A stretch of 64,000 nucleotides of DNA from Candidatus Sumerlaeota bacterium (GTDB taxonomy: Bacteria > Sumerlaeota > Sumerlaeia > MWCT01 > JAUWMI01): assembly GCA_030613245.1 (NCBI GenBank), contig JAUWMI010000004.1, positions 32,610 to 96,609 of the forward strand. The letters are read 5' to 3'. Below, piece by piece: positions 15,652 through 54,244 of the stretch. Numbering within the stretch: position 1 is the stretch's first letter; each line of letters begins with the position of its first letter. A program made the translations under genes and the position numbers. The notes below the pieces were generated by a model. That model was not told the DNA's origin. It was given only the letters and a program-made list of their open reading frames with translations, and did no database searches.

Positions 15652-16437
15652 GTGACCTCCATCATGCGCACAACTACTCTGCCCCTACTCATAGCACTGA
15701 AGGAAAAACTGAGAATGTTACGGACTTGTACATGGCTGTTTAAGGGGTTCATTGACTTCTTCTTCCCTCCATTATGCGCTGCGTGCGGTGAGCGTCTCGG
15801 AGAAGACGAGGAGGTAGTGTGCGACACCTGCCGCCAGAGCTTTACGCGGGTGCCCAAGCCATTGTGTCTGCGCTGCGGCGCAGGAGGAGTTAAAGCGAAG
15901 CAGAAAGATTGCAAGGCCTGTCCGGAGAAACCTGTGTTCTTTGATTTGGCCCGCGCCGTGGTCCTGTTTAGGGGATCCGCCCGTGAGGCGATTCACACAT
16001 TGAAATACAAGACAAGACCAGAGGTAGGCCCTGTTCTTGGCCGGCCTATGTTTCTCTACCTGAAGCGCGAGCTGGGAGACGAGACCTTCGACGCTATTAT
16101 CCCGGTGCCGCTACACTCCTCACGAGAAAGGAAACGCGGCTTCAATCAGGCGGAACTCGTTGCAGAAGAAATGGCGCGCCTGGCCCACATTCCCTTGATT
16201 CCAGAAGTCTTGGTTCGGATCAAGAGCACGAAGCAACAGACCCAGTTGCCCCCGGAGAAGCGGCGCCAAAATGTGGCTGGCGCATTCGCTCTGCGCATTG
16301 CGGAGCCAATCCTCGGCAAAACCATACTGCTAATTGACGATGTCTACACGACCGGAAATACAGTGAATGAGGCAAGCCGTGTGCTCAAAGAGGGTGGAGC
16401 TAGCAGGGTATGCGTCTTGACTTTTGCCCGGGTCTGA
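15652..16437 (+). CDS. comF: ComF family protein (double zinc-ribbon + phosphoribosyltransferase domain)
   Basis: CAACGERL...CDTC and CLRCGA..C zinc ribbons, plus the C-terminal PRTase motif LLIDDVYTTGNT. The true start may be Met22 (15715). Confidence 0.75.
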   Translation: MTSIMRTTTLPLLIALKEKLRMLRTCTWLFKGFIDFFFPPLCAACGERLGEDEEVVCDTCRQSFTRVPKPLCLRCGAGGVKAKQKDCKACPEKPVFFDLARAVVLFRGSAREAIHTLKYKTRPEVGPVLGRPMFLYLKRELGDETFDAIIPVPLHSSRERKRGFNQAELVAEEMARLAHIPLIPEVLVRIKSTKQQTQLPPEKRRQNVAGAFALRIAEPILGKTILLIDDVYTTGNTVNEASRVLKEGGASRVCVLTFARV

Positions 16438-17782: not shown

Positions 17783-18493
17783 TTAAGACTCAGACCGCGT
17801 GCCTGACGCTTTGGTTGCAGCTGCCGATGCCAGCCTATCAGCCCGCTTGTTCTGATCGCGTGCGATATAGCTTATGGTAAATTTTCCCAAATGCCTGATC
17901 AATTGCCTGGCCTCACACTGTAACGCAAACAATGTTTTGTTACGAATTTTATACTCCCCAAGCATCTGCTTGGCTAATAACTCGCTATCGGTGAAAACAA
18001 AGACCTGTTTCACACCACTGTCAAGCGCTTTTTTCAGTCCTTCCACCAGGCTTGAATATTCCGCATAGTTATTTGTCTGCCTGCCAATGAATTTCTTATC
18101 TTCCTCAATTATCCGACCCTCAAGGTCCGTAAATACCAGCCCGATTCCCGCGGGTCCCGGATTGCCCTTTGAACATCCGTCAATGAAGAGCTTCACCTTC
18201 TCAGCAGTCGCCAGCTGTTTGGGGGACTTTTCTTCGCCGGGAAGCGATGCAGCATTTTCCGGCAATTGCCTTCGGAGATATGGCTCAAGTGCGCGTAAAA
18301 GTTGCGCACAGCTGTGAAATGCTTCGCGCAGCGGCCGTTCCTTCACTTCACGGAAAAAATTCGCCACTTTACTAACATCCCCATCCTCCGAAGCCAGCAC
18401 GTCAAGAATCTTGCAAACAGGTACGCTTGTGCCCTTTACGCGCATACACTGCCTGAGCAGCTTGAGCACGTTGGGTGAAAGTTGTGGCTTCAA
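17783..18493 (-). CDS. RNase H (RVT_3/RnhA-like) domain protein with an uncharacterised roughly 100-aa N-terminal extension
   Basis: The C-terminal half LFIDGCSKGNPGPAGIGLVF..NNYAEYSSLVEGL..FTDSEL..IARDQNKRADRLA fits the RNase HI DEDD fold. The N-terminal region has no recognisable motif. Confidence 0.65.
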   Translation of the reverse strand: MKPQLSPNVLKLLRQCMRVKGTSVPVCKILDVLASEDGDVSKVANFFREVKERPLREAFHSCAQLLRALEPYLRRQLPENAASLPGEEKSPKQLATAEKVKLFIDGCSKGNPGPAGIGLVFTDLEGRIIEEDKKFIGRQTNNYAEYSSLVEGLKKALDSGVKQVFVFTDSELLAKQMLGEYKIRNKTLFALQCEARQLIRHLGKFTISYIARDQNKRADRLASAAATKASGTRSES

Positions 18494-21623: not shown

Positions 21624-22139
21624 ATGCTTAAGCGATACCGCTTTCTGCTGTTTGCTGTTGTTGCGATCGTAACCGTGGCAATTGGAACCAGCGCAATATG
21701 GGCTGTTTGCCAATATAAGTTTACAAAGGGCATCAGTGGCCCAATGCAGGTGTATGTCAAGGAGTACAACCAATGGGACTTATACATACACATCTCCGGG
21801 CCTGGCCTTAGCGACCTCGTAATAACAGACGTTATCCCGGCTGAATTGGACGTACTTTGGTACACGGCAGACATGGGAACTGTGTCCATTGAGGAAACTG
21901 GAAAGTCTGGCAAATCCGCGACTAAAGTTACATGGACCATCAATGGCCCCATCCCGGATAATGAGTTTACCACCCTACGCTTGCGCATTGCCACGAGACT
22001 CAGTCCATCTGGTAAGTTCTACCGGTTTACTGACGCTGGCTGCTACTATTTGAACGAAGGCGCGCATATGGAAGGCATCCGCGATTTGTTGCCGTGGTCT
22101 GATGACACAAATGGTATAACTATAACGGTACTGCCATAA
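21624..22139 (+). CDS. Small secreted/membrane-anchored hypothetical protein (171 aa)
   Basis: Canonical SD AAAGGAGGTGA (21607-21617) 6 nt before the ATG. The N-terminal hydrophobic anchor is LLFAVVAIVTVAIG. Confidence 0.55.
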   Translation: MLKRYRFLLFAVVAIVTVAIGTSAIWAVCQYKFTKGISGPMQVYVKEYNQWDLYIHISGPGLSDLVITDVIPAELDVLWYTADMGTVSIEETGKSGKSATKVTWTINGPIPDNEFTTLRLRIATRLSPSGKFYRFTDAGCYYLNEGAHMEGIRDLLPWSDDTNGITITVLP

Positions 22140-22762
22140 GATTAACTCGGTACGAGTACAAATTGCATTGTGAGGAGCCGTGGGTTTACTGACGTGTCCT
22201 CCCCTTGGCACACCTAAAATCTGGGGTTTTCAGTAATCGAGGGCAGCACTGAGTGAAAACAAGCTGCTCATGCAGAGCCGATTATGGGTCGGAGTCCACG
22301 GTTTCTCATCTCTTTTTAGAAAATGTGAGGTACTTCAGGTAAAATGCTGTCTCTTACGATTTCAACAAAGTTGCATACAAGGGGATGTTTTTTCTTAAAG
22401 GAGCGACAACTCCTAAAATTTATGGGACATATCCTAACCGATTGAAATGGTCTTTTCTTATTCTATTCTGAGGACGATTTAGTCTCATTGATGTTATTTA
22501 ACAAGCAAGTTATGCATTGTTGGCCAAAAGAGATTTCGAAAAGGCGGAGCGTTTAGTTAATCACTGCAATGTGTGGAAGGAATGGCTGCTGATGAAGAAT
22601 GAGCTATTTTTATTATACCAAGTATACTTAGTTCCGTGGGAAAACGTCGATAAATTACCAAATCTTAATGCGAGAATTTAATGAAAATCAAAGGTTGCAT
22701 TAAAAAAGTGCATTTTTTTCTTGACACGGCGAAATTGCCTGTGATAGCGGAAACCATACTTG

Positions 22763-22789
22763 CTATACCATGTAATAGATTTGGTATAG
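22763..22789. promoter_or_regulatory. Inverted repeat CTATACCA-N11-TGGTATAG upstream of the HTH-PilZ gene, with a TTGACA at 22721
   Basis: Perfect 8-bp arms lying in the long leader of the regulator gene; a candidate operator. Confidence 0.3.
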
Positions 22790-22977
22790 TAAAACGTGCG
22801 CCCTCACGTCCGTTCCTGCTCCAACTACAGAAGAACATTAAAGCTGAAAGATCCCCTTACGACCCAGCAGGCAACCTACTCAGCAGCTACAGAAAACCAG
22901 GGGTGCTGGAGAGGTATACGCATTTTTCTGTCTTACGTAAATTACTACATCCTATCAACCGGCGGGTCAGGGGAGAT

Positions 22978-23532
22978 ATGAAAACTTATTCAACCTTAGA
23001 AGCAGCCAAGAGAATTGGCGTTAGTAAATCAACATTGTTCGCTTGGTTTAAACATGGTAAAGTAAAAGACGTTGCGCGTGATCACCGTGGCTGGCGAATT
23101 TTCACCAGGGAGGATATACATCGGCTCATTGAATTCCGGCGCAATCGTCGAGCTATGCCTCAGAGCGCAGCTGGAATAGAACGGAGGCATTTTACGCGAG
23201 CGAAAGCCGCCATCCCAATCGTCTATGCACTTCGTGAAAGCCCAAAGCGGTCTGGGAAAGAGAAAATCGAAACAGTTACCGTGAATGTGAGTGGTGGTGG
23301 CTTCATGATAGAACAAAACAAGCCTCTCCAGACCGATGGCTTCCTTGATATTAAGTTCAATTTGCCTTCCCCTGCAAAGAAAGTCAAAGCAATTGGGCAA
23401 ATAAGATGGGTACGGGAAGTTAAGAAAGATCAAGAATCTACTTTTCTTCTCGGGTGTTGGTTCAGGTCAATAAACCCACATCAAAGAAAGCAGGTGATAG
23501 ATTACATTTTTGGATCAAAACCAAAAACATAA
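22978..23532 (+). CDS. Excisionase/MerR-type HTH DNA-binding domain fused to a PilZ (c-di-GMP-binding) domain
   Basis: GGGGAG lies 6 nt before the ATG. The N-terminal STLEAAKRIGVSKSTLFAWFKHGKV matches the Xis-family HTH. The PilZ motifs are RHFTR (RxxxR) and NVSGGG (D/NxSxGG), 27 aa apart. The upstream part of the 283-aa ORF (22681-22977) is probably leader, not coding. Confidence 0.7.
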   Translation: MKTYSTLEAAKRIGVSKSTLFAWFKHGKVKDVARDHRGWRIFTREDIHRLIEFRRNRRAMPQSAAGIERRHFTRAKAAIPIVYALRESPKRSGKEKIETVTVNVSGGGFMIEQNKPLQTDGFLDIKFNLPSPAKKVKAIGQIRWVREVKKDQESTFLLGCWFRSINPHQRKQVIDYIFGSKPKT

Positions 23533-23815
23533 GTATGTACCAAATTCGTTATCCACTTGTAGATGATGGCTGTTGCGCCTCTGATGTTACTCTTCTGTTC
23601 CTCTTCTCGCTGAATATCTTTTCTGACTATACTCTCCTGATGCCCAGATCCGTGTTCTTAACACAGTAGCCTGTTGAATTAGTTGTTGCTTAACCAGGTG
23701 TTTGCCTGCTGCCCTGACGGGCTGCCAAAAGTTACCTGCGAAAAGTTATCTGCAGACACCATGTAAGTTCATTTTGGTTCTGGTTTTACCAAAGGCAAAA
23801 TCGCTGGAGGATTTA

Positions 23816-24529
23816 ATGGAAAACATCTCAAGAGTTTTTCGTACGGTTGCCCTGATTGCCAGTGCTCTGTGCCTCTTACTCCTTGTTGCATGTGCTGCCA
23901 CATTGAGTTTACCAACCATGCCTCTGGATACCAGTATAAGGGGTGTGACTATCCCACAAGAGGTGCGACTTGCGCCAGGAGACGAGATTGAAATCAAGTT
24001 CTATTATACGCCGGACCTGAACGAGAGCCTGACCATTCGGCCAGATGGGAAAATTACCCTCCAGATGGTTGATGACGTCGAGGTAAAGGGTCTCACTCCA
24101 GACGAACTCAGAGTCGAGCTTGAAAGGCTATATACGCCATACATTAAGGAACCTGCTGTCAGCGTGATAGTGCGCACACTTGCCAGCCAGCAAATTTTTG
24201 TTGGCGGGGAGGTGCGCACGCCCGGAGCACTCCCTCTAAACGGTAACACTACGTTGCTCCAGGCTATTATACAGGCTGGTGGATTTATCAAAGTGAGTGC
24301 GAAATTATCGAATGTTATCGTAATGCGCCAGGACGAAGGAAAGTGGTACGGAGGAGCTTTTGACCTAAGAAAGGTGGTTAAAGGCAAGGAAAGCGATTCG
24401 TTTTACCTTAAGCCTATGGATATTGTTTACGTGCCGCGCACCAGAATTAACAAGCTTAACCAGTGGGTTGATCAGTATATCACGAGGATGATTCCAGGGA
24501 TGGGCAGCATTACAGCTTTTGCTCCGTAG
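23816..24529 (+). CDS. Polysaccharide export outer-membrane lipoprotein (Wza/EpsA-like, Poly_export + SLBB)
   Basis: Lipobox LLVAC. The Poly_export motif is PGDEIEIKFYYTPDLNESLTIRPDGKITLQMVDDVEVKGLTPDEL. Confidence 0.8.
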   Translation: MENISRVFRTVALIASALCLLLLVACAATLSLPTMPLDTSIRGVTIPQEVRLAPGDEIEIKFYYTPDLNESLTIRPDGKITLQMVDDVEVKGLTPDELRVELERLYTPYIKEPAVSVIVRTLASQQIFVGGEVRTPGALPLNGNTTLLQAIIQAGGFIKVSAKLSNVIVMRQDEGKWYGGAFDLRKVVKGKESDSFYLKPMDIVYVPRTRINKLNQWVDQYITRMIPGMGSITAFAP

Positions 24530-24567: not shown

Positions 24568-26172
24568 ATGGAGCCGATGGAATTAAAATCAAACGTTCCA
24601 GTGCATGGGAATCCGTATTTACGGAATATCTCAGAAATTCCCGAACAGTCGCGCCGTGACTTCTTTCGCATCATATTTCGGCAAAAATGGAAGATCTTGC
24701 TCTGCTTTGTCTTTGTAGTGGGTGCTGCAGCATTCATGGCTTCTCGTACATCAAAGACTTATGAATCGCAAGCAAAGATAATGGTTCGGATGGGACGTGA
24801 GATGCTTTCCGATGACCCGGTGATTCGTAGCGGAGAAGAACGCGGGACTACCAGCAGCCGGGATCAGATGGAATCTGAAATTACAATTCTGAAAAGTAGT
24901 ATCGTTGCCGCGCAGACAGTTGATGAGATTGGAGTAGAAGCCTTTCTTGCGAACGCAAAGGGACAGCCTGCAAAACTTCCTCGCACGCAAATTGCTGAAC
25001 TGGAAACCCTTTCTGAAATTGCGCCTCGCGAGAGAGTTATCAACAGGGTGATGAATAATCTCACTGTGAAAAACAGGGGAAGCATTATTTCAGTAGGTTT
25101 TACCGCAACGGATCCCTATCTCGCGCAACGTGTACTTGACACACTTTTGCGTGTCTATATAAAGCGCCATATTGCTGTGTTTCGGTTAGAAGTTTCCTCG
25201 CAGTTCTTTAGCGAACGCAGCGCTGCTCTTGCAGCTCAGCTCGCACGTAGTCAATCTGAATTCGAAGAATTCTGTAAAACGCATGGCATAATTAACATTG
25301 AAGAGCAAAAAAGCGGGCTGCTGGCTCAGGTGGATGATTTACATGCCCGCCTCTATGATATGAACGCGGAAATCAGTGGATCCCTTGCCATGATCTCCTC
25401 ATTCAAGAATGAGTTAGAAAACCCTGCAGAACGGAATTCCGAAGCTTCAACAGCGGTTCCTGGTGAGCTGGCAAGAATACTGAACACAAGGTTACTTGAG
25501 CTAATGTTCAAGCAAGCGGAGATTTCTCCAAAATATCCGGAAGATTCAAAGGAGATGCGCGATATCAGGCAACAAATCGAAGTTACACGATCATTAATCG
25601 CAACGGAGAATGAAAATGAATCTGGAGCACTTACAGGGATTGATACGGATAAGGCGGCGCTTGAAAGTGCAATGAAAAGCGAGCAAGCCCATCTGGCGTC
25701 ACTCAGGGCGAGGAAGAAATCCTTGGCTGGGGAGCTGGCGAAACGAGAAAAGGCCCTCAACGAACTTTCACCACTTGAGGGAAAGATTGCAAAGATGAGG
25801 CGTAATATCAGCCTGAGCGAACAGGAATACCTGAATTACCGTAATAACCTGCAGGCTACTGAAATCTCGGCCGCTCTGGACAGTGCACATGTTTCTAATG
25901 TTAAAATCTTACAGCCCGCTACTCTGCCAGTGACACCAGTCAAGCCAAGGAAAACGCGTATGATTGCTATCGGATTATTCATCGCATTTTTCGGAAGTAT
26001 AGGTTTTGCCTTTGTTATAGAGTATTTTGATCACTCCTTTAAAACGAATGAAGAAGTTGAACGTCGTTTGGGACTGCCCGTTCTGGCCACTATCCCGAAG
26101 GTGAGGAAACGGGAGTTATTATTAGCCACAGGCCAGCCCGGGAGAAACGAGAGGTTATTGTCTCATGAATAA
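24568..26172 (+). CDS. Polysaccharide chain-length determinant (PCP/Wzz-GumC family)
   Basis: TM helices at both ends with a long coiled-coil periplasmic region. The Wzz-type N-terminal motif is VKNRGSIISVGFTATDPYLAQRVLDTLLRVY. Confidence 0.8.
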   Translation: MEPMELKSNVPVHGNPYLRNISEIPEQSRRDFFRIIFRQKWKILLCFVFVVGAAAFMASRTSKTYESQAKIMVRMGREMLSDDPVIRSGEERGTTSSRDQMESEITILKSSIVAAQTVDEIGVEAFLANAKGQPAKLPRTQIAELETLSEIAPRERVINRVMNNLTVKNRGSIISVGFTATDPYLAQRVLDTLLRVYIKRHIAVFRLEVSSQFFSERSAALAAQLARSQSEFEEFCKTHGIINIEEQKSGLLAQVDDLHARLYDMNAEISGSLAMISSFKNELENPAERNSEASTAVPGELARILNTRLLELMFKQAEISPKYPEDSKEMRDIRQQIEVTRSLIATENENESGALTGIDTDKAALESAMKSEQAHLASLRARKKSLAGELAKREKALNELSPLEGKIAKMRRNISLSEQEYLNYRNNLQATEISAALDSAHVSNVKILQPATLPVTPVKPRKTRMIAIGLFIAFFGSIGFAFVIEYFDHSFKTNEEVERRLGLPVLATIPKVRKRELLLATGQPGRNERLLSHE

Positions 26173-26857
26173 CAAAATGATTACCAATAAGGTGGGGGAG
26201 GGAATCGTTATCAGCTGGAAGATCCCCAACCGAATGGAAGAACAGTGCGGCGCGCTAAAGCATGCAGTCATGGCTTCCATGGATGGCAGAGCCTACGTGC
26301 CATCTGTCCTGGCATTCACCAGCTGCCATGCAGGCGAGGGGGTCACAACGGTAGCAACAAGTTTTGCTCTAACGATTGCTGAGGATCGCGAACGATTTGT
26401 TCTACTGGTTGATTGCAATATTAAGGACCCCTGGTTGCACACACTTTTACAAGCACAGAGAGCTCCAGGATTGGTTGAGGCTCTTACAACAGAGTCTGAT
26501 CTTCCGTGGCCAGTACATCGCATTGGCCAGAGACTTGATGTCCTTTTTGCAGGAAAGGAGACGTTGAAGCCCTGGCGTGTTTTCGGCGGTGGCGAGTTTA
26601 GCAATTTTTTGCGAGAGGCCAAAAGAAACTACGACATGGTAATCCTTGACTGTCCGCCCGTGATTGACTCTGCCGGCTCGCTAGTATTGGCGACAAAAGC
26701 AGATGCCATTGTTTTGGTGCTAGAAGCTGAACGTACTCGGCGTGAAGTTGTACAACGCGCTCAAAGGGCAATTATGAGTTCCGGTGCTAAAATACTCGGA
26801 GTCGTTCTGAATAAAAAGCGCTACCATATTCCCAAGGTGCTGTACAAACATCTTTGA
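26165..26857 (+). CDS. BY-kinase-like P-loop ATPase (CpsD/CapB/EpsB-type) with a non-canonical Walker A (GEGVTT, Lys replaced by Val)
   Basis: Walker A' is VLLVDCNIKDP and Walker B is MVILDCPPV. The short C-terminus has only two Tyr. It overlaps the PCP stop. Confidence 0.65.
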   Translation: MNNKMITNKVGEGIVISWKIPNRMEEQCGALKHAVMASMDGRAYVPSVLAFTSCHAGEGVTTVATSFALTIAEDRERFVLLVDCNIKDPWLHTLLQAQRAPGLVEALTTESDLPWPVHRIGQRLDVLFAGKETLKPWRVFGGGEFSNFLREAKRNYDMVILDCPPVIDSAGSLVLATKADAIVLVLEAERTRREVVQRAQRAIMSSGAKILGVVLNKKRYHIPKVLYKHL

Positions 26858-26885: not shown

Positions 26886-28238
26886 GTGAAAGGAAGAAGA
26901 CGCGTGCCATCGAGAATTCTCCGCTGGCTAATATCTGGCTCAGGAAAGCGCACAGGCATCCGCTCTGAGATTCCAGATCTCTGGAGTGCTGAGGCTTTTA
27001 ATGAGCAGCTGAAAAAGGAGAAGCTGCGTGCTGAACGGAGCAACTCGCCCTTCGTGCTTCTTGTGTTTGATGTGCGCTGCACGTCGGGGAAAAGAGACGA
27101 CTGTATCCGGAGCTTAACTTATCTGGCTAAACTGATACAAGAATGCACCAGGGCCAGCGATACGCGGGGCTGGTATCGTGAAGATGGCAAAGAAAGGGTT
27201 GGGATTATTTTGCCAGATACGTTTCGAAAAGGTGCGCTCCAGGTTGTTGAAAAAGTTGAAGCGTCTTTTAAAAGGCATTTATTGAAGGTACACAGTGGAG
27301 ACGGAGATTCGATGTGGCTGGTTTACAAGATGTATTGGTACCCTGGCAACCATAATTCTTCCGATCGAGATGATTCCCGTCTTGGTGTAAATCGGGCCCA
27401 AAGTAACGAAAACCGACCTGGGGACTCAGAGACACAGGACGCCGACTCTCAAACATCCCGCCAAACAATGGTACCCTATAATATAGAGAGTTGCTCGTTT
27501 ACAACTTCTCTTAATACAGAACAACTTCACAATGAGGTTCAAATCGTTCACCCGGGAAAATTGTTTCAGCTACTCGCATACCATCTTCCCAGATGGAAGC
27601 GCACGGTAGACATAGTAGGAGCTTCGTTAGGACTGGTCGTACTTTCTCCCATCATGTTCTTAGTTGCGCTATTGATCAAAATGACTTCCCGAGGGCCGAT
27701 TTTTTTCAGGCAAGAGAGAGTCGGCTACCTGGGTAAACAGTTCCAATTCCTGAAATTTCGCTCAATGCGAACGCACGCTGACGAATCAATCCATCAAAAA
27801 CATCTCAAGGAACTGATATGCAACGGCAACGGCAATGGCAACGGATCCGATAAGCCGATGACAAAAATTCGTAACGATCCGCGGGTTACAAAATTGGGGC
27901 GATTGCTTCGTGCATGGTGTCTTGATGAATTACCGCAATTGATACACGTGTTGAGAGGAGAAATGTCATTAATCGGTCCCAGGCCACCCATTCAATACGA
28001 GGTGGAAGATTATCAGGATTGGCACAAGCAACGCCTAAATATAGTTCCGGGAATTACTGGACTTTGGCAGGTTAACGGCAAGAACGCCATGACATTCGAC
28101 GAAATGGTTCGTGTGGACCTTCGATATATGAAGAATCTCTCCTTTTGGACAGATATAAAGATTTTGGCGAAGACCATTCCCACGGTACTTCGTATTGGGA
28201 TTGGCGCGAAATCTACGGCGAGTTGCCAGGAAGGATGA
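26886..28238 (+). CDS. Priming polyprenyl-phosphate phosphoglycosyltransferase (WbaP/PglC 'bacterial sugar transferase' family) with an N-terminal roughly 210-aa degenerate GGDEF-like domain
   Basis: The C-terminal catalytic domain reads ...FRSMR...DPRVTKLGRLLRAWCLDELPQL...IGPRP...VPGITGLWQVNG. The N-terminus aligns to the GGDEF fold (FNEQL..PFVLLVFDV..RASD-TRGWY-REDGKE-RVGIILPDT). A single re-entrant/TM helix lies between the domains. Confidence 0.8.
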   Translation: MKGRRRVPSRILRWLISGSGKRTGIRSEIPDLWSAEAFNEQLKKEKLRAERSNSPFVLLVFDVRCTSGKRDDCIRSLTYLAKLIQECTRASDTRGWYREDGKERVGIILPDTFRKGALQVVEKVEASFKRHLLKVHSGDGDSMWLVYKMYWYPGNHNSSDRDDSRLGVNRAQSNENRPGDSETQDADSQTSRQTMVPYNIESCSFTTSLNTEQLHNEVQIVHPGKLFQLLAYHLPRWKRTVDIVGASLGLVVLSPIMFLVALLIKMTSRGPIFFRQERVGYLGKQFQFLKFRSMRTHADESIHQKHLKELICNGNGNGNGSDKPMTKIRNDPRVTKLGRLLRAWCLDELPQLIHVLRGEMSLIGPRPPIQYEVEDYQDWHKQRLNIVPGITGLWQVNGKNAMTFDEMVRVDLRYMKNLSFWTDIKILAKTIPTVLRIGIGAKSTASCQEG

Positions 28239-28245
28239 AAAGAAA

Positions 28246-29301
28246 ATGATTAAAGTTGCAGTAGTGGGGTGTGGCTACTGGGGCCCTAACTTGATTCGCA
28301 ATTTTTGTTCTGTTCCCCAGTGTGTTATGAGCATGGCGTGTGACACAAAGCCAGATCGGTTGGAATACATACAACGCTTATATCCGTCAGTCGCAGTGAC
28401 CAGCGACTTCCAGGACATTATCAACAATGACGACATTGATGCTGTGGCAATCGCAACACCTGTTGCAATGCACTTTCCCATGGCTCAGCAATGCCTGCAA
28501 CGCGGCAAACATGTTTTGCTTGAAAAGCCTATAACTGCGTCGGTCAAGGAATGTCAAGAACTTATCCGGCTTGCCGTTAAGCATGGCAGGACGCTAATGG
28601 TGGACCATACCTTTGAGTATACAGCTGCGGTCAACAAGATAAAAGAAATTATCCAGAGTGGAGAGCTTGGACAAATATATTATATTGATTGTGTCAGGGT
28701 AAATCTTGGTCTGTTTCAAAACGATATCAACGTCGTATGGGATCTGGCGCCCCATGACGTATCCATTGTTCTCTATCTGCTTGACCAGCAGCCGGAAAGC
28801 ATTAGTGGGCAAGGCAAGGCACACCTCAAGCCGGGCATTGAGGACGTAGCAGCACTGGCTCTGAATTTCCCCGACAACCTTGGGGTCTACATTCAGAGTA
28901 GCTGGTTGCATCCGAACAAGATTAGGAAAATCACAATCGTGGGGAGTAAGAAGATGCTGGTCTACGATGACGTTGACCCATTGGAGAAGATCAAGATCTA
29001 TGACAAGGGTGTGGAAGTTCCGGCGCATTACGAAACTTTTGGTGATTTCCACTTTTCCTACAGGTACGGCGATATTTATAGCCCACGGCTGGAAGAGACG
29101 GAACCTCTCAAAAAGGTATGTCAGCACTTTATCGAATGCATCGGTAATGGAACGCAACCAAGAACCAACGGCATAAGCGGTCTGCGCGTCGTCTCGGTGC
29201 TTGAATCGGCGAATATATCCTTGAAGAACGGAGGAAGCCCGATTGCGATTGATTGGAATCGCGTAACTCCAGAAGAAATATCCGCCAAAGATTCAATATA
29301 A
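28246..29301 (+). CDS. Gfo/Idh/MocA family NAD-dependent sugar oxidoreductase (WbpB/UDP-GlcNAc 3-dehydrogenase-like)
   Basis: MIKVAVVGCGYWGPN Rossmann start and EKP motif (LLEKPIT). Confidence 0.8.
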   Translation: MIKVAVVGCGYWGPNLIRNFCSVPQCVMSMACDTKPDRLEYIQRLYPSVAVTSDFQDIINNDDIDAVAIATPVAMHFPMAQQCLQRGKHVLLEKPITASVKECQELIRLAVKHGRTLMVDHTFEYTAAVNKIKEIIQSGELGQIYYIDCVRVNLGLFQNDINVVWDLAPHDVSIVLYLLDQQPESISGQGKAHLKPGIEDVAALALNFPDNLGVYIQSSWLHPNKIRKITIVGSKKMLVYDDVDPLEKIKIYDKGVEVPAHYETFGDFHFSYRYGDIYSPRLEETEPLKKVCQHFIECIGNGTQPRTNGISGLRVVSVLESANISLKNGGSPIAIDWNRVTPEEISAKDSI

Positions 29302-30807: not shown

Positions 30808-32130
30808 ATGATTAGGCAAGAGACACAGATAAAGGTTTGCTTACTTGGCGTTTCATTTGAAACGGGGAATATGGGGGTACATGCGCTTACTCATGCTACC
30901 ATAAAATGCATCCTCGCGCAATTGGCCGACGCCCAAATTACAATCCTGGACTACGCACATCAGCCAAAGGAATACAATCTGAGGATTGGCGATAAGAAAA
31001 CCACCGTACGCATGGTGAATATGAGATTTTCTAAAAAGTTTTATCTTAAGAATAATGTTGCCGTGCTTTTCTTACTTTCGTGCATTCTGAAACTAATCCC
31101 GATTCCATTTGTCAGAAGGCGCATAATCGAGAACAACGCTTGCCTAAGGACATTAGTGAACGCCGATATTGTGGCAGACATCAGCGGGGGAGATAGCTTT
31201 ACAGATATGTACGGCTTACGCAGAGTCTTTTATATATGCCTTCCCAAAATACTGGTTATCATGCTGAAAAAAGATCTCATTCTCCTGCCGCAAACTATCG
31301 GACCCTTTAAAAGTATCCTGGCAAAAGCTATTGCCAGATATATTCTGAACCGTGCCAGTATAATCTATTCCAGAGACCGTATTGGTCTGAGCGAATATGT
31401 AAGCTCTCTGAAAATGAATGCTGTAAACGGAAAGGCTAGGTTTTGCTACGACGTAGGTTTTGTGCTTGAGCCAGCAAAGCCCAATAAGATTGAGATTAGT
31501 TCTCTTCTCAATACAGGCAACAGCAGGTATATGGTGGTTGGGCTTAACATCAGTGGCCTACTTTATAACGGCGGCAGAACCCGCAACAATATGTTTGGAT
31601 TAAAAGTCGATTACCAACAGCTAATTCTTAAAGTTATAACTTTACAGATGCAGCACGAGAACGCAATCGTCCTGCTTGTACCACACGCTTTCCACCCGCC
31701 TGAGCATTTTGAAAGCGACCAGGGTGTATGTGCCCAGGTTTATGATTTGCTTAGAGAGAGGTATGGAAACCGGATCAAGCTCGTTCCGGGAACTTATGAC
31801 CAAAGCGAGATTAAATATATTATTGGGATGTGTGATTTTTTTGTTGGCTCACGGATGCATGCGTGCATCGCGGCACTTTCGCAGAGCATTCCCACAGTGG
31901 CTATTGCGTATAGCAAAAAATTCAAGGGTGTTATGGACTCAATTGGAGTTGGAAATCTTGTAGCAGACCCTCGGGAAATGGAAGAGCAGGAAATACTCGG
32001 TGTAATTAATAAAGCATACGCGGAAAGAGACATCATTAGCAATCATTTAGAGCGGACCATGCCTGATGTGAAGAAGCGCGTGCTGAATCTTTTTGCAGAG
32101 ATCCAAGAGTTCAGTATGAAGCGGCAATGA
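30808..32130 (+). CDS. Polysaccharide pyruvyl transferase (CsaB/WcaK family)
   Basis: GGDSFTDMYG and the C-terminal SRMHACIAALSQSIPTVAIAYSKKFKGV are typical of the PS_pyruv_trans family. Confidence 0.8.
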   Translation: MIRQETQIKVCLLGVSFETGNMGVHALTHATIKCILAQLADAQITILDYAHQPKEYNLRIGDKKTTVRMVNMRFSKKFYLKNNVAVLFLLSCILKLIPIPFVRRRIIENNACLRTLVNADIVADISGGDSFTDMYGLRRVFYICLPKILVIMLKKDLILLPQTIGPFKSILAKAIARYILNRASIIYSRDRIGLSEYVSSLKMNAVNGKARFCYDVGFVLEPAKPNKIEISSLLNTGNSRYMVVGLNISGLLYNGGRTRNNMFGLKVDYQQLILKVITLQMQHENAIVLLVPHAFHPPEHFESDQGVCAQVYDLLRERYGNRIKLVPGTYDQSEIKYIIGMCDFFVGSRMHACIAALSQSIPTVAIAYSKKFKGVMDSIGVGNLVADPREMEEQEILGVINKAYAERDIISNHLERTMPDVKKRVLNLFAEIQEFSMKRQ

Positions 32131-33305
32131 AGATAACCGATCAAAATATCAGTTTGATTGTCAAGAAGCGCATTTGCTGCGGCTGTGGCGGTTGCACCGT
32201 CATCTGTCCGCAGGCATGTATAGAAATGATCAGTGGCCGGCACTTCAACTATCCTCAAGTTCAGGTTGACGGATGTATAAAGTGTGGAAAATGCATTCAG
32301 GTATGTCCGAGCACGCACTTGCTGGAAAACCTAGATGAGAAACTGTATGTGTCGCATTTAAATGAGGCCTATAACTACTGGATTGCTCATGCTAATGACG
32401 ATGCAATACGGACAGAAGGAGCTTCAGGAGGATTTGTTTCGGCGTTCTTGATCTATCTGCTGCGCGCGCAAGAGATAGACGGAGCTGTAGTAGCATGCGG
32501 AGATGATTCCGATCCGCTTTTGAACCGGTCGTTTCTTGCTACTGATGAGAAAGGGATTCTGGCGGCGTGTGGGTCCAGATATGGTCCGGTTTCAAATTGT
32601 ACGGCCCTTGAACAAATAATAAAGAAACCAGGAAACTACGCATTTGTTGGGAAGCCGTGTGAAATTCAGGCTTTGCGCAAATTGCAAGATCTTGTCCCTG
32701 AGCTGAAAAAGCGCATTCACTTATCAATAGGAATCTTTTGCGCATGCACTCCTCCGCGCAGCAACACAGCATCTTTTCTATCCCGATGGGGTGTGAGATT
32801 GCAAGACGTACGGAAGATTCAATACCGGGGGCACGGCTGGCCTGGTTTGTTCCGGGCATCGAATGGTCGCAAGATATTGCTTGAAAGGCCATACATGGAT
32901 GCCTGGCGGCACCTCGTGGCAACTAATCCATCAATCAGATGCATGCTGTGTTTCGATACATTTGCCGATGCTGCGGACGTATCGGTCGGTGATCCGTGGG
33001 GCGAAGAACTCATTGCCTCGGAACAAAGAGGACTATCACTGGTTGTGGTAAGAAGTAAACGAGCGAAGGATAACATTCGATCTGCAGAAAAGTCCGGCGC
33101 TATCAGCCTTATAGAAACCACACGAGCCGACGTACTCACATGTCAGAAGGCGCTTGTGGGTAAGGTCCAAAAAGCAAGGGCAAAAGTTCTTGTTTATCAG
33201 ATCATCTCTCAGAAGCGGGTGCAAGAACCACTAACGCTATGGAAAAATAGATTTTCGATGGCAAGGTCACTGTTGAGACAATATGCGAAGCGCCATTACT
33301 ATTGA
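32127..33305 (+). CDS. FrhB/FdhB-like (coenzyme F420 hydrogenase beta subunit-like) protein with two N-terminal 4Fe-4S ferredoxin motifs
   Basis: CCGCGGCTVICP and CIKCGKCIQVCP. It overlaps the pyruvyl-transferase stop; these two families are well known to pair in EPS loci. Confidence 0.7.
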   Translation: MKITDQNISLIVKKRICCGCGGCTVICPQACIEMISGRHFNYPQVQVDGCIKCGKCIQVCPSTHLLENLDEKLYVSHLNEAYNYWIAHANDDAIRTEGASGGFVSAFLIYLLRAQEIDGAVVACGDDSDPLLNRSFLATDEKGILAACGSRYGPVSNCTALEQIIKKPGNYAFVGKPCEIQALRKLQDLVPELKKRIHLSIGIFCACTPPRSNTASFLSRWGVRLQDVRKIQYRGHGWPGLFRASNGRKILLERPYMDAWRHLVATNPSIRCMLCFDTFADAADVSVGDPWGEELIASEQRGLSLVVVRSKRAKDNIRSAEKSGAISLIETTRADVLTCQKALVGKVQKARAKVLVYQIISQKRVQEPLTLWKNRFSMARSLLRQYAKRHYY

Positions 33306-33396: not shown

Positions 33397-34764
33397 ATGG
33401 AGCCAGTAACATTATTAATAGCCGCAATAGGCTCTTTGGCTGTGTTCTCCGTTCGTCCAATTATGGGGATTATTTTTTATGTAGCGGTCCTTGCGTGGTA
33501 TCCTTCGTATTTAACATTGAAGGTAGGTACGCTTGATTTTTCTGCAAGCCGTATAGTAATTCTAGCACTCTACGCCAGTATTTTGTTCCGAACCAAACTT
33601 GCGCAGCAATTTAAATGGTGCTGGCTCGACCGGCTCCTTATCATTGCACTCCTTGGCACCGTTATATCTGGTATGATGAACGAGCCATTCTGGAAAATAG
33701 TAGAAAACCGCAGTGGAACAGCCTTCAACACATTACTCCCGTATTTTGCGGTGCGGATGATTGTAACTTCTCGAGAGAAATTCCTGACGGTTCTGAAAGG
33801 CTTTTTAGTTATCGGAACCCCACTGGCTATAGTAGGTGCTTATCAGAGTCTTACCGGTCATAATCCGGTCGGATTTCTTCACCAATATGGCGCGTGGACA
33901 CCCAGAGAAGCTCATAGATATTTCAGATATGGCCTGTATCGCGCGGAGGTGACATTCTCAGTTAGCATCCTTTTTGGGCTGTTCTTTGCCATGATTGCAC
34001 CATGCTGTGCAGGCTTATGGGGACATATAAAGCACCTTCGGCTTCCCATTGCTGCTGGGATTGGATTAATGTTGATTGGCCTAGTATCATCTGCCTCCAG
34101 TGCAGCTTTCCTTGCAGGTTTAGTGGCATTGCTTTTGCTTTCAATGTTTCCAATTAGACGTTATTGGCCTGCTTTGCTTATAGTGTTGGTTGCGGGATGC
34201 ATATTTGTAGAGGTGTTCAGCAACAGGCACTTCTACTCAGTTCCGGCCAGTTTCACATTCAGTTCGGCAACTGCTTACTACCGGATTGGTCTTATAGAGG
34301 AGGCTTTCGGTGGTGGCATGACGGGTCACTGGATTGAGGGCTATGGATTGATTGGCATGCAGCCTGATCGCCTTGGTTGGGTACACTGGGATCTTACCAA
34401 TCAATACATTGGCATACTGGCTCGTTTCGGACTGCTGGGGCTTTTGCCTTTCTTGGTTGTCATAGTTGCATCGTTAATTCGGCTGCGAAGAGCCTTTGTC
34501 TTGGCTAGCCCCAACAAGGCTGATCAGTGGATGATCTGGTGCTTGCTAGCTTCAGTGGCGGGTATACTAATTGCAATGAATACTGTGTCTTTATTCGACC
34601 AATCAGGCAACTTATTCTATATCTTACTTGGTCTAAGCGGAGCTATGCCCGTGATTCTTTCATCAGTCCCCGCGAAAACAAAGCCACTAGTTGAGACATG
34701 GCGTTATAGAGTTGACTTTCCTTTTCCTGAAATGGCTGATACGAAGAATTTTCAACAAGGTTGA
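33397..34764 (+). CDS. O-antigen polymerase/ligase (Wzy-type) family membrane protein
   Basis: 455 aa with roughly 11 TM helices and a large periplasmic loop. Confidence 0.55.
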   Translation: MEPVTLLIAAIGSLAVFSVRPIMGIIFYVAVLAWYPSYLTLKVGTLDFSASRIVILALYASILFRTKLAQQFKWCWLDRLLIIALLGTVISGMMNEPFWKIVENRSGTAFNTLLPYFAVRMIVTSREKFLTVLKGFLVIGTPLAIVGAYQSLTGHNPVGFLHQYGAWTPREAHRYFRYGLYRAEVTFSVSILFGLFFAMIAPCCAGLWGHIKHLRLPIAAGIGLMLIGLVSSASSAAFLAGLVALLLLSMFPIRRYWPALLIVLVAGCIFVEVFSNRHFYSVPASFTFSSATAYYRIGLIEEAFGGGMTGHWIEGYGLIGMQPDRLGWVHWDLTNQYIGILARFGLLGLLPFLVVIVASLIRLRRAFVLASPNKADQWMIWCLLASVAGILIAMNTVSLFDQSGNLFYILLGLSGAMPVILSSVPAKTKPLVETWRYRVDFPFPEMADTKNFQQG

Positions 34765-52702: not shown

Positions 52703-54244
52703 TTAATCTTTGCTTCCAGTTTCGGCATATTGGGGGAGTTTTATGATCCCCAATTTGTTAAAAAGCCATTTCTTTTCTTGTGAGTCCAAAACCCAAAAAA
52801 ACGAAACCCCCAGCGTCAATATAACTATTATTGCAATTGGCGGTGCCAATCCAACAATTCCGATGCCAATGAAATGGCGGCTGAATAGCCACCATGAGAG
52901 AAAAAACACAAGAGAAATTTTAACAAAGGCCTTGCCAAGGACGCTATAGTAGTAGTCCTTATAGGGCATTTTTAGACATTTACATACATAAAAAGGCTGC
53001 ACAAGTAGCCTCATGACAATCATTGGAATAGCATAGCCAAGAGCTATGCCCAGCATCTTGTATTGAGATACTAATAGTAAACTGAGCGAGAGATTGAGCA
53101 ATGCTTCCACAGAATTGCAATAAGCGTAAAATTTATGGCGCGCTATGCCATAGAGAAAACCCACAGAGGGCGCTTGGGCGAGATCAACGGTTGTTCCTAT
53201 AATTAACAGAAAAAGAGGAACATAGGCATCTATATAATCAACACCCATCCAAGCAGCAATGAATGGTTTTCCATATAGGAGAAGACACAGCCCTACGCAC
53301 ATCGAGAAAATAGTGGAAAGTTTTGTCCCTGTGACGAAAGTCCGGCGCATCGCATCTTCATCTTGGCGGCCCAATTGCTGGCTGAACATTGGGCCAATGC
53401 CACCCATGAGAGAGATTATTAGATTTCTAAAATACATGGTTAATCGTTTGGCAATGGCGTAGTGCGTTATCATGCCGATACCAAGAAAAGCACCAATAAT
53501 GAAGGCGTCTATGTTGAATCTGATTTGATCAGCTATTTTTGCAATGAACGTGAAAATGCTATAGGCGAATAGATCCTTAAAGACCTTGCGACTTGCTGTT
53601 CTAATTGACAGGCGAAATCTCGGTCGCACTATCTTAAGAAGCACGTAGCGTGCTGAGTGGTTAGAAAGCTCAATCAACATCGTCACAAGGGCCAGTGCCA
53701 CTATACCATATCCTGCTTTTAGCAAGAGGAAAATTAAGACAGCTCTCACCAGGGTACCTGCGATGTTGAGTCCAGATATAAGATCGAAACGCAACTCGGC
53801 AGACAAAGCTCCAAGAAAAGCTCGACACGGAAACCCAGCCACGAAGCCTGCACCCATGATTAATAGCACTTTGCTAAAAAGAGCTGCTTCCGTAGGATCT
53901 TTAATTATGCGAGAGGAGAAGAACGCCGCAACTATGGTAATTGCGAAAATGAGCAAACCCAGTAATCCGAACATGACAAATGCGGTGGAAACTGAGCGGT
54001 TTATCTCCTCCTCATCCCGCTCTCCTATACATCGTGCAACCCGATACTGCACGGCAGTGACAATTCCAAGATCAAAAAGGCCGTAGTATCCAAGAAAGGC
54101 AGCGACCAATACCCAATAGCCATAGATGCGATCACCAAGGGTATGGATGATAAAAGGCATCAGGAACATACCGACAACAACCTGAACCACAAGGTTGGTT
54201 GTCCGCATGGCTGATCCTAAGGCTAGTTTACGAGCAGCGTTCAT
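52703..54244 (-). CDS. Wzx-type oligosaccharide flippase (MOP/polysaccharide biosynthesis protein family)
   Basis: 513 aa, roughly 14 TM helices, matching the usual Wzx layout. Confidence 0.75.
   Translation of the reverse strand: MNAARKLALGSAMRTTNLVVQVVVGMFLMPFIIHTLGDRIYGYWVLVAAFLGYYGLFDLGIVTAVQYRVARCIGERDEEEINRSVSTAFVMFGLLGLLIFAITIVAAFFSSRIIKDPTEAALFSKVLLIMGAGFVAGFPCRAFLGALSAELRFDLISGLNIAGTLVRAVLIFLLLKAGYGIVALALVTMLIELSNHSARYVLLKIVRPRFRLSIRTASRKVFKDLFAYSIFTFIAKIADQIRFNIDAFIIGAFLGIGMITHYAIAKRLTMYFRNLIISLMGGIGPMFSQQLGRQDEDAMRRTFVTGTKLSTIFSMCVGLCLLLYGKPFIAAWMGVDYIDAYVPLFLLIIGTTVDLAQAPSVGFLYGIARHKFYAYCNSVEALLNLSLSLLLVSQYKMLGIALGYAIPMIVMRLLVQPFYVCKCLKMPYKDYYYSVLGKAFVKISLVFFLSWWLFSRHFIGIGIVGLAPPIAIIVILTLGVSFFWVLDSQEKKWLFNKLGIIKLPQYAETGSKD

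What the first reader, a model, noticed from the sequence alone, without database searches (positions are those of the whole stretch)
26967..27276. Priming phosphoglycosyltransferase carries a degenerate GGDEF-like domain with an intact RxxD I-site: a candidate c-di-GMP receptor built into the first enzyme of the EPS pathway
The N-terminal roughly 210 aa of the WbaP/PglC-family enzyme (26886-28238) align to the GGDEF fold (FNEQL...PFVLLVFDV...RASD-TRGWY-REDGKE-RVGIILPDT...ALQVVEKV). The layout matches PleD-type RESD-VVARY-GGEEF, but the catalytic GG(D/E)EF is replaced by REDGK while RASD (27150-27161) keeps the I-site RxxD. Degenerate GGDEF domains that retain an I-site are established c-di-GMP receptors, PelD being the textbook case. 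Fusing one directly to the lipid-carrier priming transferase would gate EPS initiation post-translationally. I do not recall this architecture as a described paradigm. The locus is also headed by an HTH-PilZ regulator.
Basis: partly seen in the sequence, partly recalled or inferred. Interest (0 to 1): 0.85.

Follow-up and report, generated by a model that had tools for sequence, protein, structure and literature searches.

The report
Sugar-priming enzyme with built-in c-di-GMP sensor
The enzyme that starts synthesis of a bacterial slime polysaccharide carries a dead diguanylate-cyclase domain that keeps only its c-di-GMP-binding site, and over 250 related protein clusters share it, so the biofilm signal c-di-GMP may switch this pathway on at its first step; binding is predicted, not shown.

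Summary
ORF 26886-28238 (+) encodes a small monotopic phosphoglycosyl transferase (Bac_transf, E 1e-65). A soluble N-terminal domain (residues ~30-155) is joined to it by a disordered linker. That domain is a truncated, catalytically dead GGDEF fold:
- Pfam GGDEF scores 25.6 bits (E 1.2e-5).
- A family profile matches solved GGDEF sequences at E 8e-12.

RASD (27150-27161) aligns exactly on the WspR I-site R242xxD245. R51 aligns on WspR R198, the second I-site arginine.

This is not a one-off. At least 250 clusters at 50% identity share the domain, either fused to a PGT in 1-3 copies or stand-alone inside EPS loci. In 265 non-redundant copies, the helix-1 R is 98% conserved, and the R, D, G and W of RxxDxxGW are 99, 97, 98 and 89% conserved. 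The GGDEF-motif columns are unconserved. No Pfam or NCBIfam model covers the family, and I found no paper describing it.

A MerR-PilZ regulator does head the locus. The best reading is an I-site-only c-di-GMP receptor gating Wzx/Wzy EPS initiation. Ligand binding and the direction of the effect remain untested.

The parts
26886..28238 (+). Whole gene: GGDEF-like domain, linker and monotopic phosphoglycosyl transferase (450 aa from GTG 26886; the likely true start is GTG 26904, giving 444 aa)
26973..27350 (+). Folded N-terminal GGDEF-like core, residues 30-155 (helix 35-52, strand 56-65, helix 70-87, strands 93-99 and 102-110, helix 114-135, strand 143-152)
27018..27038 (+). Helix-1 motif E45-x-x-R48-x-x-R51. 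R51 aligns with WspR R198, the secondary I-site arginine
   Evidence: R51 column 98% conserved, R48 93%, E45 94%
27150..27161 (+). R89-A-S-D92, aligned on the I-site RxxD (WspR R242xxD245)
   Evidence: R 99% and D 97% conserved in 265 non-redundant domains
27168..27173 (+). G95-W96, the family-specific continuation of the motif (RxxDxxGW). W replaces the Arg of canonical '...aRyGGDEF'
   Evidence: G 98%, W 89%
27186..27200 (+). G101-K-E-R-V105, the degenerate counterpart of GG[DE]EF. These columns are unconserved in the family
   Evidence: alignments
27351..27551 (+). Disordered low-complexity linker, residues 156-222. It is longer here than in most homologues
   Evidence: pLDDT below 50; composition; alignment
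27597..28190 (+). Bac_transf catalytic domain, residues 238-435. It includes the only hydrophobic segment (about 240-268, the re-entrant helix with L-S-P at 253-255), KFRSM 290-294, the D347-E348 dyad (27924-27929) and PRPP 365-368
22681..23532 (+). MerR-type HTH plus PilZ regulator heading the locus. PilZ motifs RRHFTR and NVSGGG are intact. The conserved part begins at M100 (about 22978), so the real start may lie there
   Evidence: same gene in the related locus L011
23702..26857 (+). Export and chain-length module directly upstream: Wza-like Poly_export/SLBB (23702-24529), Wzz/GNVR co-polymerase (24568-26172) and a ParA/AAA_31 BY-kinase-like ATPase (26165-26857)
   Evidence: the same order occurs in loci L001, L011 and L012
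28195..43030 (+). Rest of the EPS cluster: GFO/IDH/MocA oxidoreductase, GT1, pyruvyl transferase with FrhB-like partner, Wzy-like polymerase (33397-34764), two GT2, deacetylases, FemAB-like acyltransferase, hexapeptide acetyltransferase, DegT aminotransferase and ATP-grasp
52703..54244 (-). Wzx-type flippase candidate (Polysacc_synt_3/MatE)

Best explanation
The gene encodes the initiating enzyme of a Wzx/Wzy-dependent exopolysaccharide pathway. This is a small monotopic phosphoglycosyl transferase that puts a sugar-1-phosphate on undecaprenyl phosphate. Its cytoplasmic N-terminus is a minimal, catalytically dead GGDEF domain that has kept only the allosteric I-site.

Proposed mechanism (inferred): at high c-di-GMP, an intercalated c-di-GMP dimer binds R89/D92 of one N-domain and R51 of a second N-domain, as in the WspR and PleD I-site cross-link. 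The second N-domain could belong to another PGT subunit, to a tandem copy, or to a stand-alone paralogue. This pairing brings two PGT subunits together or releases autoinhibition, and raises priming of the lipid carrier. EPS synthesis would therefore be gated post-translationally at its first committed step. The MerR-PilZ regulator upstream would give c-di-GMP control of transcription of the same locus.

Shown here by computation: the two-domain architecture, the GGDEF fold, loss of the catalytic residues, exact alignment and near-invariance of the I-site triad, and exclusive association of the domain with PGTs and EPS loci.

Inferred: that the ligand is c-di-GMP, that it acts by dimerisation, and that the effect is activation.
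For: **Fold and homology**
- all place the N-domain in the GGDEF family.

**Dead A-site**
- No GG[DE]EF motif is present.
- The DxFKxxND..GH..GD segment is replaced by a variable loop.
- The domain is truncated after strand 4.

**I-site**
- R89/D92 align with WspR R242/D245, and R51 aligns with WspR R198.
- Both R242A and R198A mutations abolish c-di-GMP retention in WspR (PMC2270323).

**Selection on the I-site**
- R51, R89, D92, G95 and W96 are the only invariant N-domain columns among 70 fused homologues of 17-65% identity.
- They are 89-99% conserved in 265 domains that share less than 60% identity.
- 100 of 109 PGT-selected homologues carry R..D...[WFY].

**Dedicated association with PGTs and EPS loci**
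- Every longer protein examined that carries the domain is a PGT, with 1-3 tandem copies.
- Stand-alone copies sit inside EPS loci that also encode a fused copy (L002 and L004).
- The flanking order Wza-Wzz-kinase-[PGT]-GFO oxidoreductase recurs.

**Topology**
- There is no hydrophobic segment before residue 240. The N-domain therefore lies on the cytoplasmic side, together with the active site of a monotopic PGT.

**Context**
- A PilZ regulator with intact motifs sits in the same locus and in the 65%-identical relative.

**Precedent for regulated PGT dimerisation and nucleotide sensing**
- PMC12802240 and PMC10312794.
Against: - No binding data exist, and no ligand docking or coordinate-level check of the I-site geometry was possible.
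- The E-x-x-R-x-x-R pattern of helix 1 is also common in active cyclases, so R51 could be conserved partly for structural reasons.
- The third I-site arginine used by PleD (R390) and PelD (R402) is not conserved here.
- W96 replaces a conserved Arg, and the hairpin carries an insertion, so the pocket differs from canonical I-sites.
- The PilZ regulator is absent from more distant loci, which use sigma-54 response regulators or NusG paralogues instead.
- The conservation statistics from the profile-selected set are partly circular. The one search count is not.
- Activation rather than inhibition is assumed only by analogy with other EPS systems.
Confidence: 0.6

Rival explanations
1. The N-domain is a degenerate GGDEF scaffold that binds no nucleotide. 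The conserved R/R/D/GW patch would be a protein-protein interface, for example constitutive dimerisation of the PGT or docking of the Wzc-like kinase or co-polymerase encoded just upstream.
For: Accessory domains of large PGTs mediate dimerisation (PMC10312794; PMC12802240). Tandem and stand-alone copies also fit a pairing module. The neighbouring BY-kinase-like ATPase is conserved in synteny, and tyrosine phosphorylation of a small PGT (CapM) is documented.
Against: The conserved residues are exactly those that contact c-di-GMP in WspR. Degenerate GGDEF domains that do not use the I-site, such as those of LapD and FimX, are known from the literature to have lost RxxD (own knowledge), so the fold does not require it. 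A charged Arg/Arg/Asp patch next to an exposed Trp is more typical of a nucleotide site than of a protein interface.
Confidence: 0.17
2. The domain is a nucleotide sensor, but for a ligand other than c-di-GMP. Candidates are feedback by UMP, UDP or a UDP-sugar (as proposed for the WbaP accessory domain), (p)ppGpp, GTP or another cyclic dinucleotide.
For: The WbaP DUF binds UMP/UDP/UTP, and UMP inhibits the enzyme (PMC10312794). PleD structures with (p)ppGpp now exist (PDB 9g85 and 9g86, listed). The family-specific Trp and the loss of the PleD R390 equivalent show that the pocket is remodelled.
Against: All characterised ligands of the RxxD I-site are c-di-GMP (own knowledge of PleD, WspR, PelD, PopA, SgmT, CdgA, PssE and YdaK). 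A PilZ regulator in the same locus points to c-di-GMP as the controlling signal.
Confidence: 0.15
3. The GGDEF resemblance and the RxxD are chance features of an unrelated or decaying N-terminal extension with no function.
For: The single-sequence Pfam score is borderline (25.6 against 23.8 bits, and 22.7 for the isolated N-terminus). Most homologues fall below Pfam's threshold.
Confidence: 0.02

Closest known systems
I-site of active diguanylate cyclases (WspR R242xxD245 plus R198; PleD R359xxD362 plus R313; GcbC 5euh; Marinobacter 3ign)
   Same: These are the best sequence and structure matches. The RxxD and the helix-1 arginine align residue for residue. In WspR and activated PleD, these residues cross-link two GGDEF domains through a c-di-GMP dimer.
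   Different: Those proteins are enzymes in which the site mediates product inhibition. Here the catalytic half is gone (no GG[DE]EF, no GTP/Mg residues, no C-terminal third of the fold). A Trp replaces the conserved Arg before the hairpin, and the output is a membrane glycosyl-phosphate transferase.
PelD (P. aeruginosa Pel), and by the same logic Listeria PssE and B. subtilis YdaK: degenerate GGDEF I-site receptors that switch on EPS machines
Accessory cytosolic domain (DUF, CoA_binding_3-like) of large monotopic PGTs such as S. enterica WbaP
   Same: It is a non-catalytic cytosolic domain on a PGT that senses nucleotides and mediates dimerisation, and so regulates the first committed step (PMC10312794).
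   Different: The fold is unrelated (Rossmann-like), it lies behind a four-helix membrane bundle, and the ligand is UMP or a UDP-sugar. The window protein has no N-terminal TM helices and matches WbaP/WcaJ models only over their C-terminal catalytic part.
EpsW~P-EpsZ of Myxococcus xanthus
   Same: A signalling input acts post-translationally on the initiating PGT of a Wzx/Wzy EPS pathway, proposed to work by promoting the active dimer (PMC12802240).
   Different: The input there is a separate phosphorylated single-domain response regulator, not a fused second-messenger sensor, and EpsZ is a large PGT.
Small monotopic PGT PglC (Campylobacter)
   Same: The catalytic domain is 38% identical over about 200 residues, with TM-score 0.78 on the target. 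It has the re-entrant helix, the Asp-Glu dyad and the PRP motif.
   Different: PglC is the bare catalytic core, without any regulatory extension.

Membership tests
Monotopic phosphoglycosyl transferase superfamily (Pfam Bac_transf; PglC/WbaP) | Significant match to the Bac_transf catalytic domain over its full length | tested here: met
   PF02397 at residues 238-435, profile positions 1-178 of 179, E 9.7e-66. Foldseek matches PglC 8e37 at 7e-14 and WbaP 8t53 at 1e-10.
Monotopic phosphoglycosyl transferase superfamily (Pfam Bac_transf; PglC/WbaP) | A single re-entrant membrane helix broken at Ser-Pro, an Asp-Glu catalytic dyad, and the KFRSM and PRP motifs | tested here: met
   The only hydrophobic segment is at about residues 240-268. 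L-S-P is at 253-255, with helices 236-252 and 254-267. KFRSM is at 290, D347-E348 lies in DELPQ, and PRPP is at 365. All are invariant or nearly invariant in 70 homologues.
Monotopic phosphoglycosyl transferase superfamily (Pfam Bac_transf; PglC/WbaP) | Transfer of a sugar-1-phosphate to polyprenyl phosphate | not testable with these tools
   Requires an enzyme assay. The sugar substrate is unknown; the conserved neighbours (GFO oxidoreductase, hexapeptide acetyltransferase and DegT) hint at an acetamido sugar.
Large monotopic PGTs (WbaP/WcaJ type) | An N-terminal four-helix membrane bundle plus a CoA_binding_3-like DUF | tested here: not met
   No hydrophobic segment in residues 1-225. The TIGR03022/03023/03025 models match only over their C-terminal parts and score below their cut-offs.
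GGDEF domain superfamily (fold) | GGDEF/palm fold, with sequence homology to PF00990 | tested here: met
Active diguanylate cyclases | The GG[DE]EF active-site hairpin and the GTP/Mg-binding residues (DxD...N...D, C-terminal K/R) | tested here: not met
   GGEEF aligns with GKERV. The DYFKSYND..GH..GD segment is replaced by a short variable loop, and the C-terminal third is absent.
Degenerate-GGDEF I-site c-di-GMP receptors (PelD, PopA, SgmT, CdgA class) | RxxD at the I-site position just upstream of the (former) GGDEF hairpin | tested here: met
   R89-A-S-D92 aligns with WspR R242-P-S-D245 in phmmer and profile alignments. It is 99% and 97% conserved across the family.
Degenerate-GGDEF I-site c-di-GMP receptors (PelD, PopA, SgmT, CdgA class) | An additional arginine that completes the site | tested here: inconclusive
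   The helix-1 arginine (R51, equivalent to WspR R198 and PleD R313) is 98% conserved. The equivalent of PleD R390 and PelD R402 in helix 3 is not conserved.
Degenerate-GGDEF I-site c-di-GMP receptors (PelD, PopA, SgmT, CdgA class) | Specific c-di-GMP binding that depends on RxxD | not testable with these tools
   Needs ITC, DRaCALA or MST with wild type and R89A/D92A/R51A variants.

The most novel reading that the evidence does not exclude
A widespread, uncurated family of minimal 'I-site-only' GGDEF domains (signature ExxRxxR...RxxDxxGW...[YF]P) is a dedicated c-di-GMP sensor for Wzx/Wzy-type and exosortase-type exopolysaccharide pathways. By cross-linking two such domains with a c-di-GMP dimer, it assembles or activates the initiating phosphoglycosyl transferase. 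The paired domains may be on two PGT subunits, in tandem copies, or on a PGT and a stand-alone paralogue encoded in the same locus. This would be the first direct second-messenger switch on a priming PGT, and would extend c-di-GMP's post-translational control from synthase-dependent to Wzx/Wzy-dependent polysaccharide synthesis.
Probability: 0.45. Interest if true: 0.82.

Novelty: new variant of a known kind. Interest (0 to 1): 0.72.

Why it matters
c-di-GMP is the master signal for biofilm matrix production. Its known direct, post-translational targets are synthase-type machines (cellulose, alginate, Pel, PNAG-like systems). For the far more common Wzx/Wzy-dependent pathways, only transcriptional c-di-GMP control is established. 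A 2025 paper explicitly calls their post-translational regulation incompletely understood (PMC12802240).

A sensor fused to the priming enzyme would control the step that commits scarce undecaprenyl phosphate. It would therefore explain how cells avoid draining the lipid carrier, and it is directly testable with one soluble 130-residue domain and three point mutants.

The family is large. It is found in Acidobacteriota, Hydrogenedentota, Spirochaetia, Nitrospinota and Syntrophobacteraceae MAGs, mostly uncultured soil and water bacteria. It is almost invisible to current annotation: only 4 of 120 close homologues carry a precomputed GGDEF call, and stand-alone copies are labelled 'hypothetical'. 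A dedicated HMM would therefore re-annotate many EPS loci as c-di-GMP-responsive.

Tried and rejected
**Searches that returned little or nothing**
- Word-index search with the N-terminal 230 aa found only 2 fragments. The exhaustive phmmer search and a full-length query were needed to find the family.
- Exact look-up of the 450-aa ORF failed because databases use the GTG 26904 start.
That figure is a sample, not a census.
- The afdb50 fold library was unavailable.
- O'Toole et al. 2021 (PNAS) and the 2021 Biochem Soc Trans review could not be read. I cannot exclude that GGDEF-PGT fusions are listed there among 'regulatory domain' fusions.
- Ten literature searches gave no description of the architecture.
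- An Rfam scan found no c-di-GMP riboswitch in the window, only one tRNA.
- The source organism could not be identified. Cluster look-ups returned no informative names; the only named members are Microcystis-MAG fragments of about 50 aa, probably from associated bacteria.

**Interpretations considered and rejected**
- Active cyclase: rejected because the motifs are missing.
- Large WbaP-type PGT: rejected because there are no N-terminal TM helices.
- Dedicated Pfam or NCBIfam family for the domain: none exists.
- All stand-alone copies being gene fragments: L003 is a frameshifted fused gene, but L002 and L004 carry intact stand-alone genes plus a separate fused PGT.

- Coordinate-level superposition on c-di-GMP-bound structures. 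Model coordinates are not exposed to scripts.
Full report
**1. What is in the sequence.**
The ORF at 26886-28238 (+) is real. It is 100% identical to a database protein of 444 aa (P0003) that starts at GTG 26904. An AAAGGAAG ribosome-binding site lies 9 nt upstream of that codon, so 26904 is the more likely start. The flagged span 26967-27276 is residues 28-130, and RASD is residues 89-92, at 27150-27161.

**2. The C-terminal half is a competent priming enzyme.**
- Pfam Bac_transf covers residues 238-435 over the whole profile (E 9.7e-66).
- NCBIfam EPS/WbaP/WcaJ models match only over their C-terminal catalytic parts.
- The AF2 model matches PglC (8e37, E 7e-14, 38% identity) and WbaP (8t53, E 1e-10).
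- The single hydrophobic segment (about 240-268) is the re-entrant helix with its Ser-Pro break. KFRSM, the D347-E348 dyad and PRPP are present and invariant among homologues.
- There is no hydrophobic segment in residues 1-225. This is therefore a small monotopic PGT core with a soluble cytoplasmic extension, not a WbaP-type large PGT.

**3. The N-terminal domain is a truncated, dead GGDEF fold.**
- Pfam GGDEF matches residues 32-136 (profile 9-115 of 161) at 25.6 bits (gathering score 23.8, E 1.2e-5). That is borderline, and it drops to 22.7 bits for the isolated N-terminus.
- Single-sequence phmmer against PDB sequences returns only GGDEF domains, at E about 0.1.
- A profile of 41 family members raises this to E 7.8e-12 (3ign), 2.8e-11 (GcbC, 5euh) and 6e-9 (WspR).
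- AF2 with a 70-sequence alignment gives pLDDT above 90 for residues 30-155, with the order helix, strand, helix, strand, strand, helix, strand.
- The Foldseek top 50 are all GGDEF domains.

The catalytic apparatus is gone. GGEEF aligns with G101-K-E-R-V105, with R98-E-D as an insertion. The DxFKxxND..GH..GD segment after strand 1 is replaced by a short variable loop. The fold stops after strand 4. Residues 156-222 are a disordered S/T/N/Q/D-rich linker.

**4. The I-site.**
In every alignment, R89-A-S-D92 lies on the RxxD of the I-site (WspR R242-P-S-D245). R51 in helix 1 aligns without gaps with WspR R198: query residue 34 corresponds to residue 181 of 3bre. De et al. 2008 show that c-di-GMP at the WspR I-site is held by R242 and by R198 from a neighbouring GGDEF domain, as in activated PleD. 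They also show that both R242A and R198A proteins purify nucleotide-free (PMC2270323).

A bare RxxD would be expected by chance in about 200 residues. Its position and its conservation are what make this one meaningful.

**5. It is a family, not a one-off.**
- A full-length search returned more than 100 PGTs of 370-450 aa that share the N-domain at 17-65% identity.
- Those hits were selected essentially through their PGT domain. Even so, 100 of the 109 with an N-terminal region of at least 120 aa carry R-x-x-D-x-x-x-[WFY], almost always as RxxDxxGW.
- In 70 aligned homologues, the only invariant N-domain columns are R51, R89, D92, G95 and W96. F38, E45, R48, L58, G106 and P153 are at least 90% conserved.
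- An exhaustive phmmer search of 1.84 billion representatives with residues 1-170 found 250 clusters at E up to 1e-3. Of the 147 newly fetched among the 150 listed, 121 carry the exact RxxDxxGW motif.
- Across 265 domains sharing less than 60% identity, conservation is 98% for the helix-1 R. For the R, D, G and W of RxxDxxGW it is 99%, 97%, 98% and 89%. The GGDEF-equivalent columns show no consensus. This set was profile-selected, so that figure is partly circular; the count is not.
- No Pfam or NCBIfam model describes the domain. Only 20 of 41 members reach E up to 1 against PF00990, and the window copy is the best of them. Only 4 of the 120 listed homologues had a precomputed GGDEF call.

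**6. Architectures and contexts.**
- Every longer protein examined that carries the domain is a PGT, with one, two or three tandem copies. Most copies keep ExxRxxR and RxxDxxGW.
- About half of the representatives are proteins of 150-200 aa. One of these is a frameshifted fused gene (L003).
- In L002 and L004, by contrast, an intact stand-alone gene lies in an exosortase/PEP-CTERM-style EPS locus. That locus contains a NusG paralogue, a sigma-54 response regulator, Poly_export, an AAA ATPase and an ATP-grasp gene. It also encodes a PGT with its own fused copy 3 kb away, and both copies read RETDVTGW.
- Fused genes sit in the order Wza, Wzz/GNVR, ParA-like kinase, PGT, GFO/IDH/MocA oxidoreductase in the window and in loci sharing 65% and 41% identity.
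- Organisms named for carriers include Hydrogenedentota, Bryobacteraceae, Terracidiphilus, Terriglobia, other Acidobacteriota, Spirochaetia, Nitrospinota and Syntrophobacteraceae MAGs.
- The window's own organism could not be named.

**7. The locus.**
- The window carries a complete Wzx/Wzy-type EPS cluster.
- It is headed by a MerR-HTH plus PilZ protein (22681-23532) with intact RRxxxR (RRHFTR) and NxSxxG (NVSGGG) motifs.
- The same regulator heads the 65%-identical locus L011, but more distant loci lack it.
- No c-di-GMP riboswitch is present.

**8. Mechanism.**
Shown here:
- A catalytically intact PGT is tethered to a cytoplasmic GGDEF remnant.
- The remnant's only strongly selected surface is the I-site triad plus a family-specific Gly-Trp.
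- The domain occurs only with PGTs and EPS loci.

Inferred:
- The ligand is c-di-GMP. All characterised RxxD I-sites bind it, and a PilZ regulator is in the operon.
- The helix-1 arginine, which in WspR and PleD reaches across from a second GGDEF domain, is conserved. So are the tandem and stand-alone-plus-fused arrangements. These suggest that a c-di-GMP dimer pairs two N-domains.
- Pairing would dimerise or de-repress the PGT. Regulated dimerisation as the activation step of a PGT has a precedent in EpsW~P-EpsZ, and nucleotide sensing by a PGT accessory domain has one in WbaP (PMC12802240; PMC10312794).
- Activation rather than inhibition is assumed by analogy with other EPS systems.

I put 0.6 on the c-di-GMP receptor reading, about 0.17 on a ligand-free interaction module, about 0.15 on another nucleotide, and about 0.02 on chance.

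**9. Comparison and novelty.**
- Functionally this resembles PelD-type degenerate GGDEF receptors. Structurally it is closer to the I-site half of active cyclases.
- It fails the test for an active cyclase and for a large WbaP-type PGT.
- It passes every testable criterion for a monotopic PGT and for an I-site-bearing GGDEF domain. Ligand binding is untestable here.
- The kind (I-site receptor, accessory regulatory domain on a PGT) is known.
- The variant appears undescribed in the searchable literature: an I-site-only mini-GGDEF fused to the priming enzyme of Wzx/Wzy pathways, with stand-alone and tandem forms.
- From memory, the abstract of O'Toole et al. 2021 mentions 'regulatory domain' fusions of monotopic PGTs. 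I could not read that paper, so a catalogue mention cannot be excluded. Because most members fall below Pfam's GGDEF threshold, a Pfam-based survey would have missed most of the family.

**10. Verdict.**
The function remains a prediction. Interest is 0.72, and the novelty class is a new variant of a known kind.

Noticed in passing
window 27822-27845 (residues 313-320 of the PGT): An Asn-Gly dipeptide repeat (AAC/AAT-GGC hexanucleotide units) sits in a loop of the catalytic domain. The copy number differs among very close relatives: 4 NG in the window, 3 in P0002 and 2 in P0001. This looks like in-frame slippage. NG runs also occur in the linkers of P0007 and P0012.
   Followed up: partly
L002 8001-8450 and 11489-12622; L004 8001-8531 and 11510-12646: Exosortase/PEP-CTERM-style EPS loci encode a stand-alone copy of the mini-GGDEF domain, immediately upstream of an ATP-grasp gene, and also a PGT with its own fused copy. 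Both copies carry RETDVTGW. This suggests a trans-acting partner, or a second regulated enzyme.
   Followed up: partly
proteins P0236, P0270 (3 copies); P0141, P0164, P0185, P0207, P0252, P0108 (2 copies): Some PGTs carry two or three tandem copies of the domain. Most copies retain ExxRxxR and RxxDxxGW, and a few are degenerate.
   Followed up: partly
window 22681-23532: This is the MerR-HTH plus PilZ regulator. Similarity to the L011 orthologue is weak over the first 100 or so residues and strong from M100 on, and a 184-aa database member exists. The true start is therefore probably near 22978. HTH-PilZ transcription factors are themselves little studied.
   Followed up: partly
window 21624-22139: A 171-aa ORF with an N-terminal hydrophobic anchor has no Pfam match. 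It is 68% identical to the ORF at the same position in L011. It sits where other loci have a NusG paralogue, and its function is unknown.
   Followed up: partly
L012 4251-4712: A 153-aa ORF upstream of Wza in the P0007 locus gives a weak partial hit (E about 1e-3) to the mini-GGDEF profile but lacks the RxxDxxGW motif.
   Followed up: no
window 28195-29301 and homologous loci: A GFO/IDH/MocA oxidoreductase immediately follows the PGT in all four fused-gene loci examined, often alongside a hexapeptide acetyltransferase and a DegT aminotransferase. This hints that the primed sugar is a di-N-acetylated amino sugar. The TTG start listed for this ORF overlaps the PGT gene; the database call starts 8 nt after the PGT stop.
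   Followed up: no
window 30808-33305: A polysaccharide pyruvyl transferase is paired with an FrhB/FdhB-like Fe-S protein. The same pair occurs in L011.
   Followed up: no
window 47359-51006 (-): A 1215-aa protein with beta-helix/NosD, fn3 and Laminin_G_3 domains lies next to the EPS cluster. It may be a secreted glycan-binding or glycan-degrading protein.
   Followed up: no
window 17783-18493 (-): An RNase H / RVT_3-type protein lies between seryl-tRNA synthetase and the EPS region. MutS (12771-15422, -) and a ComF-like phosphoribosyltransferase (15652-16437) show that the window is chromosomal.
   Followed up: no
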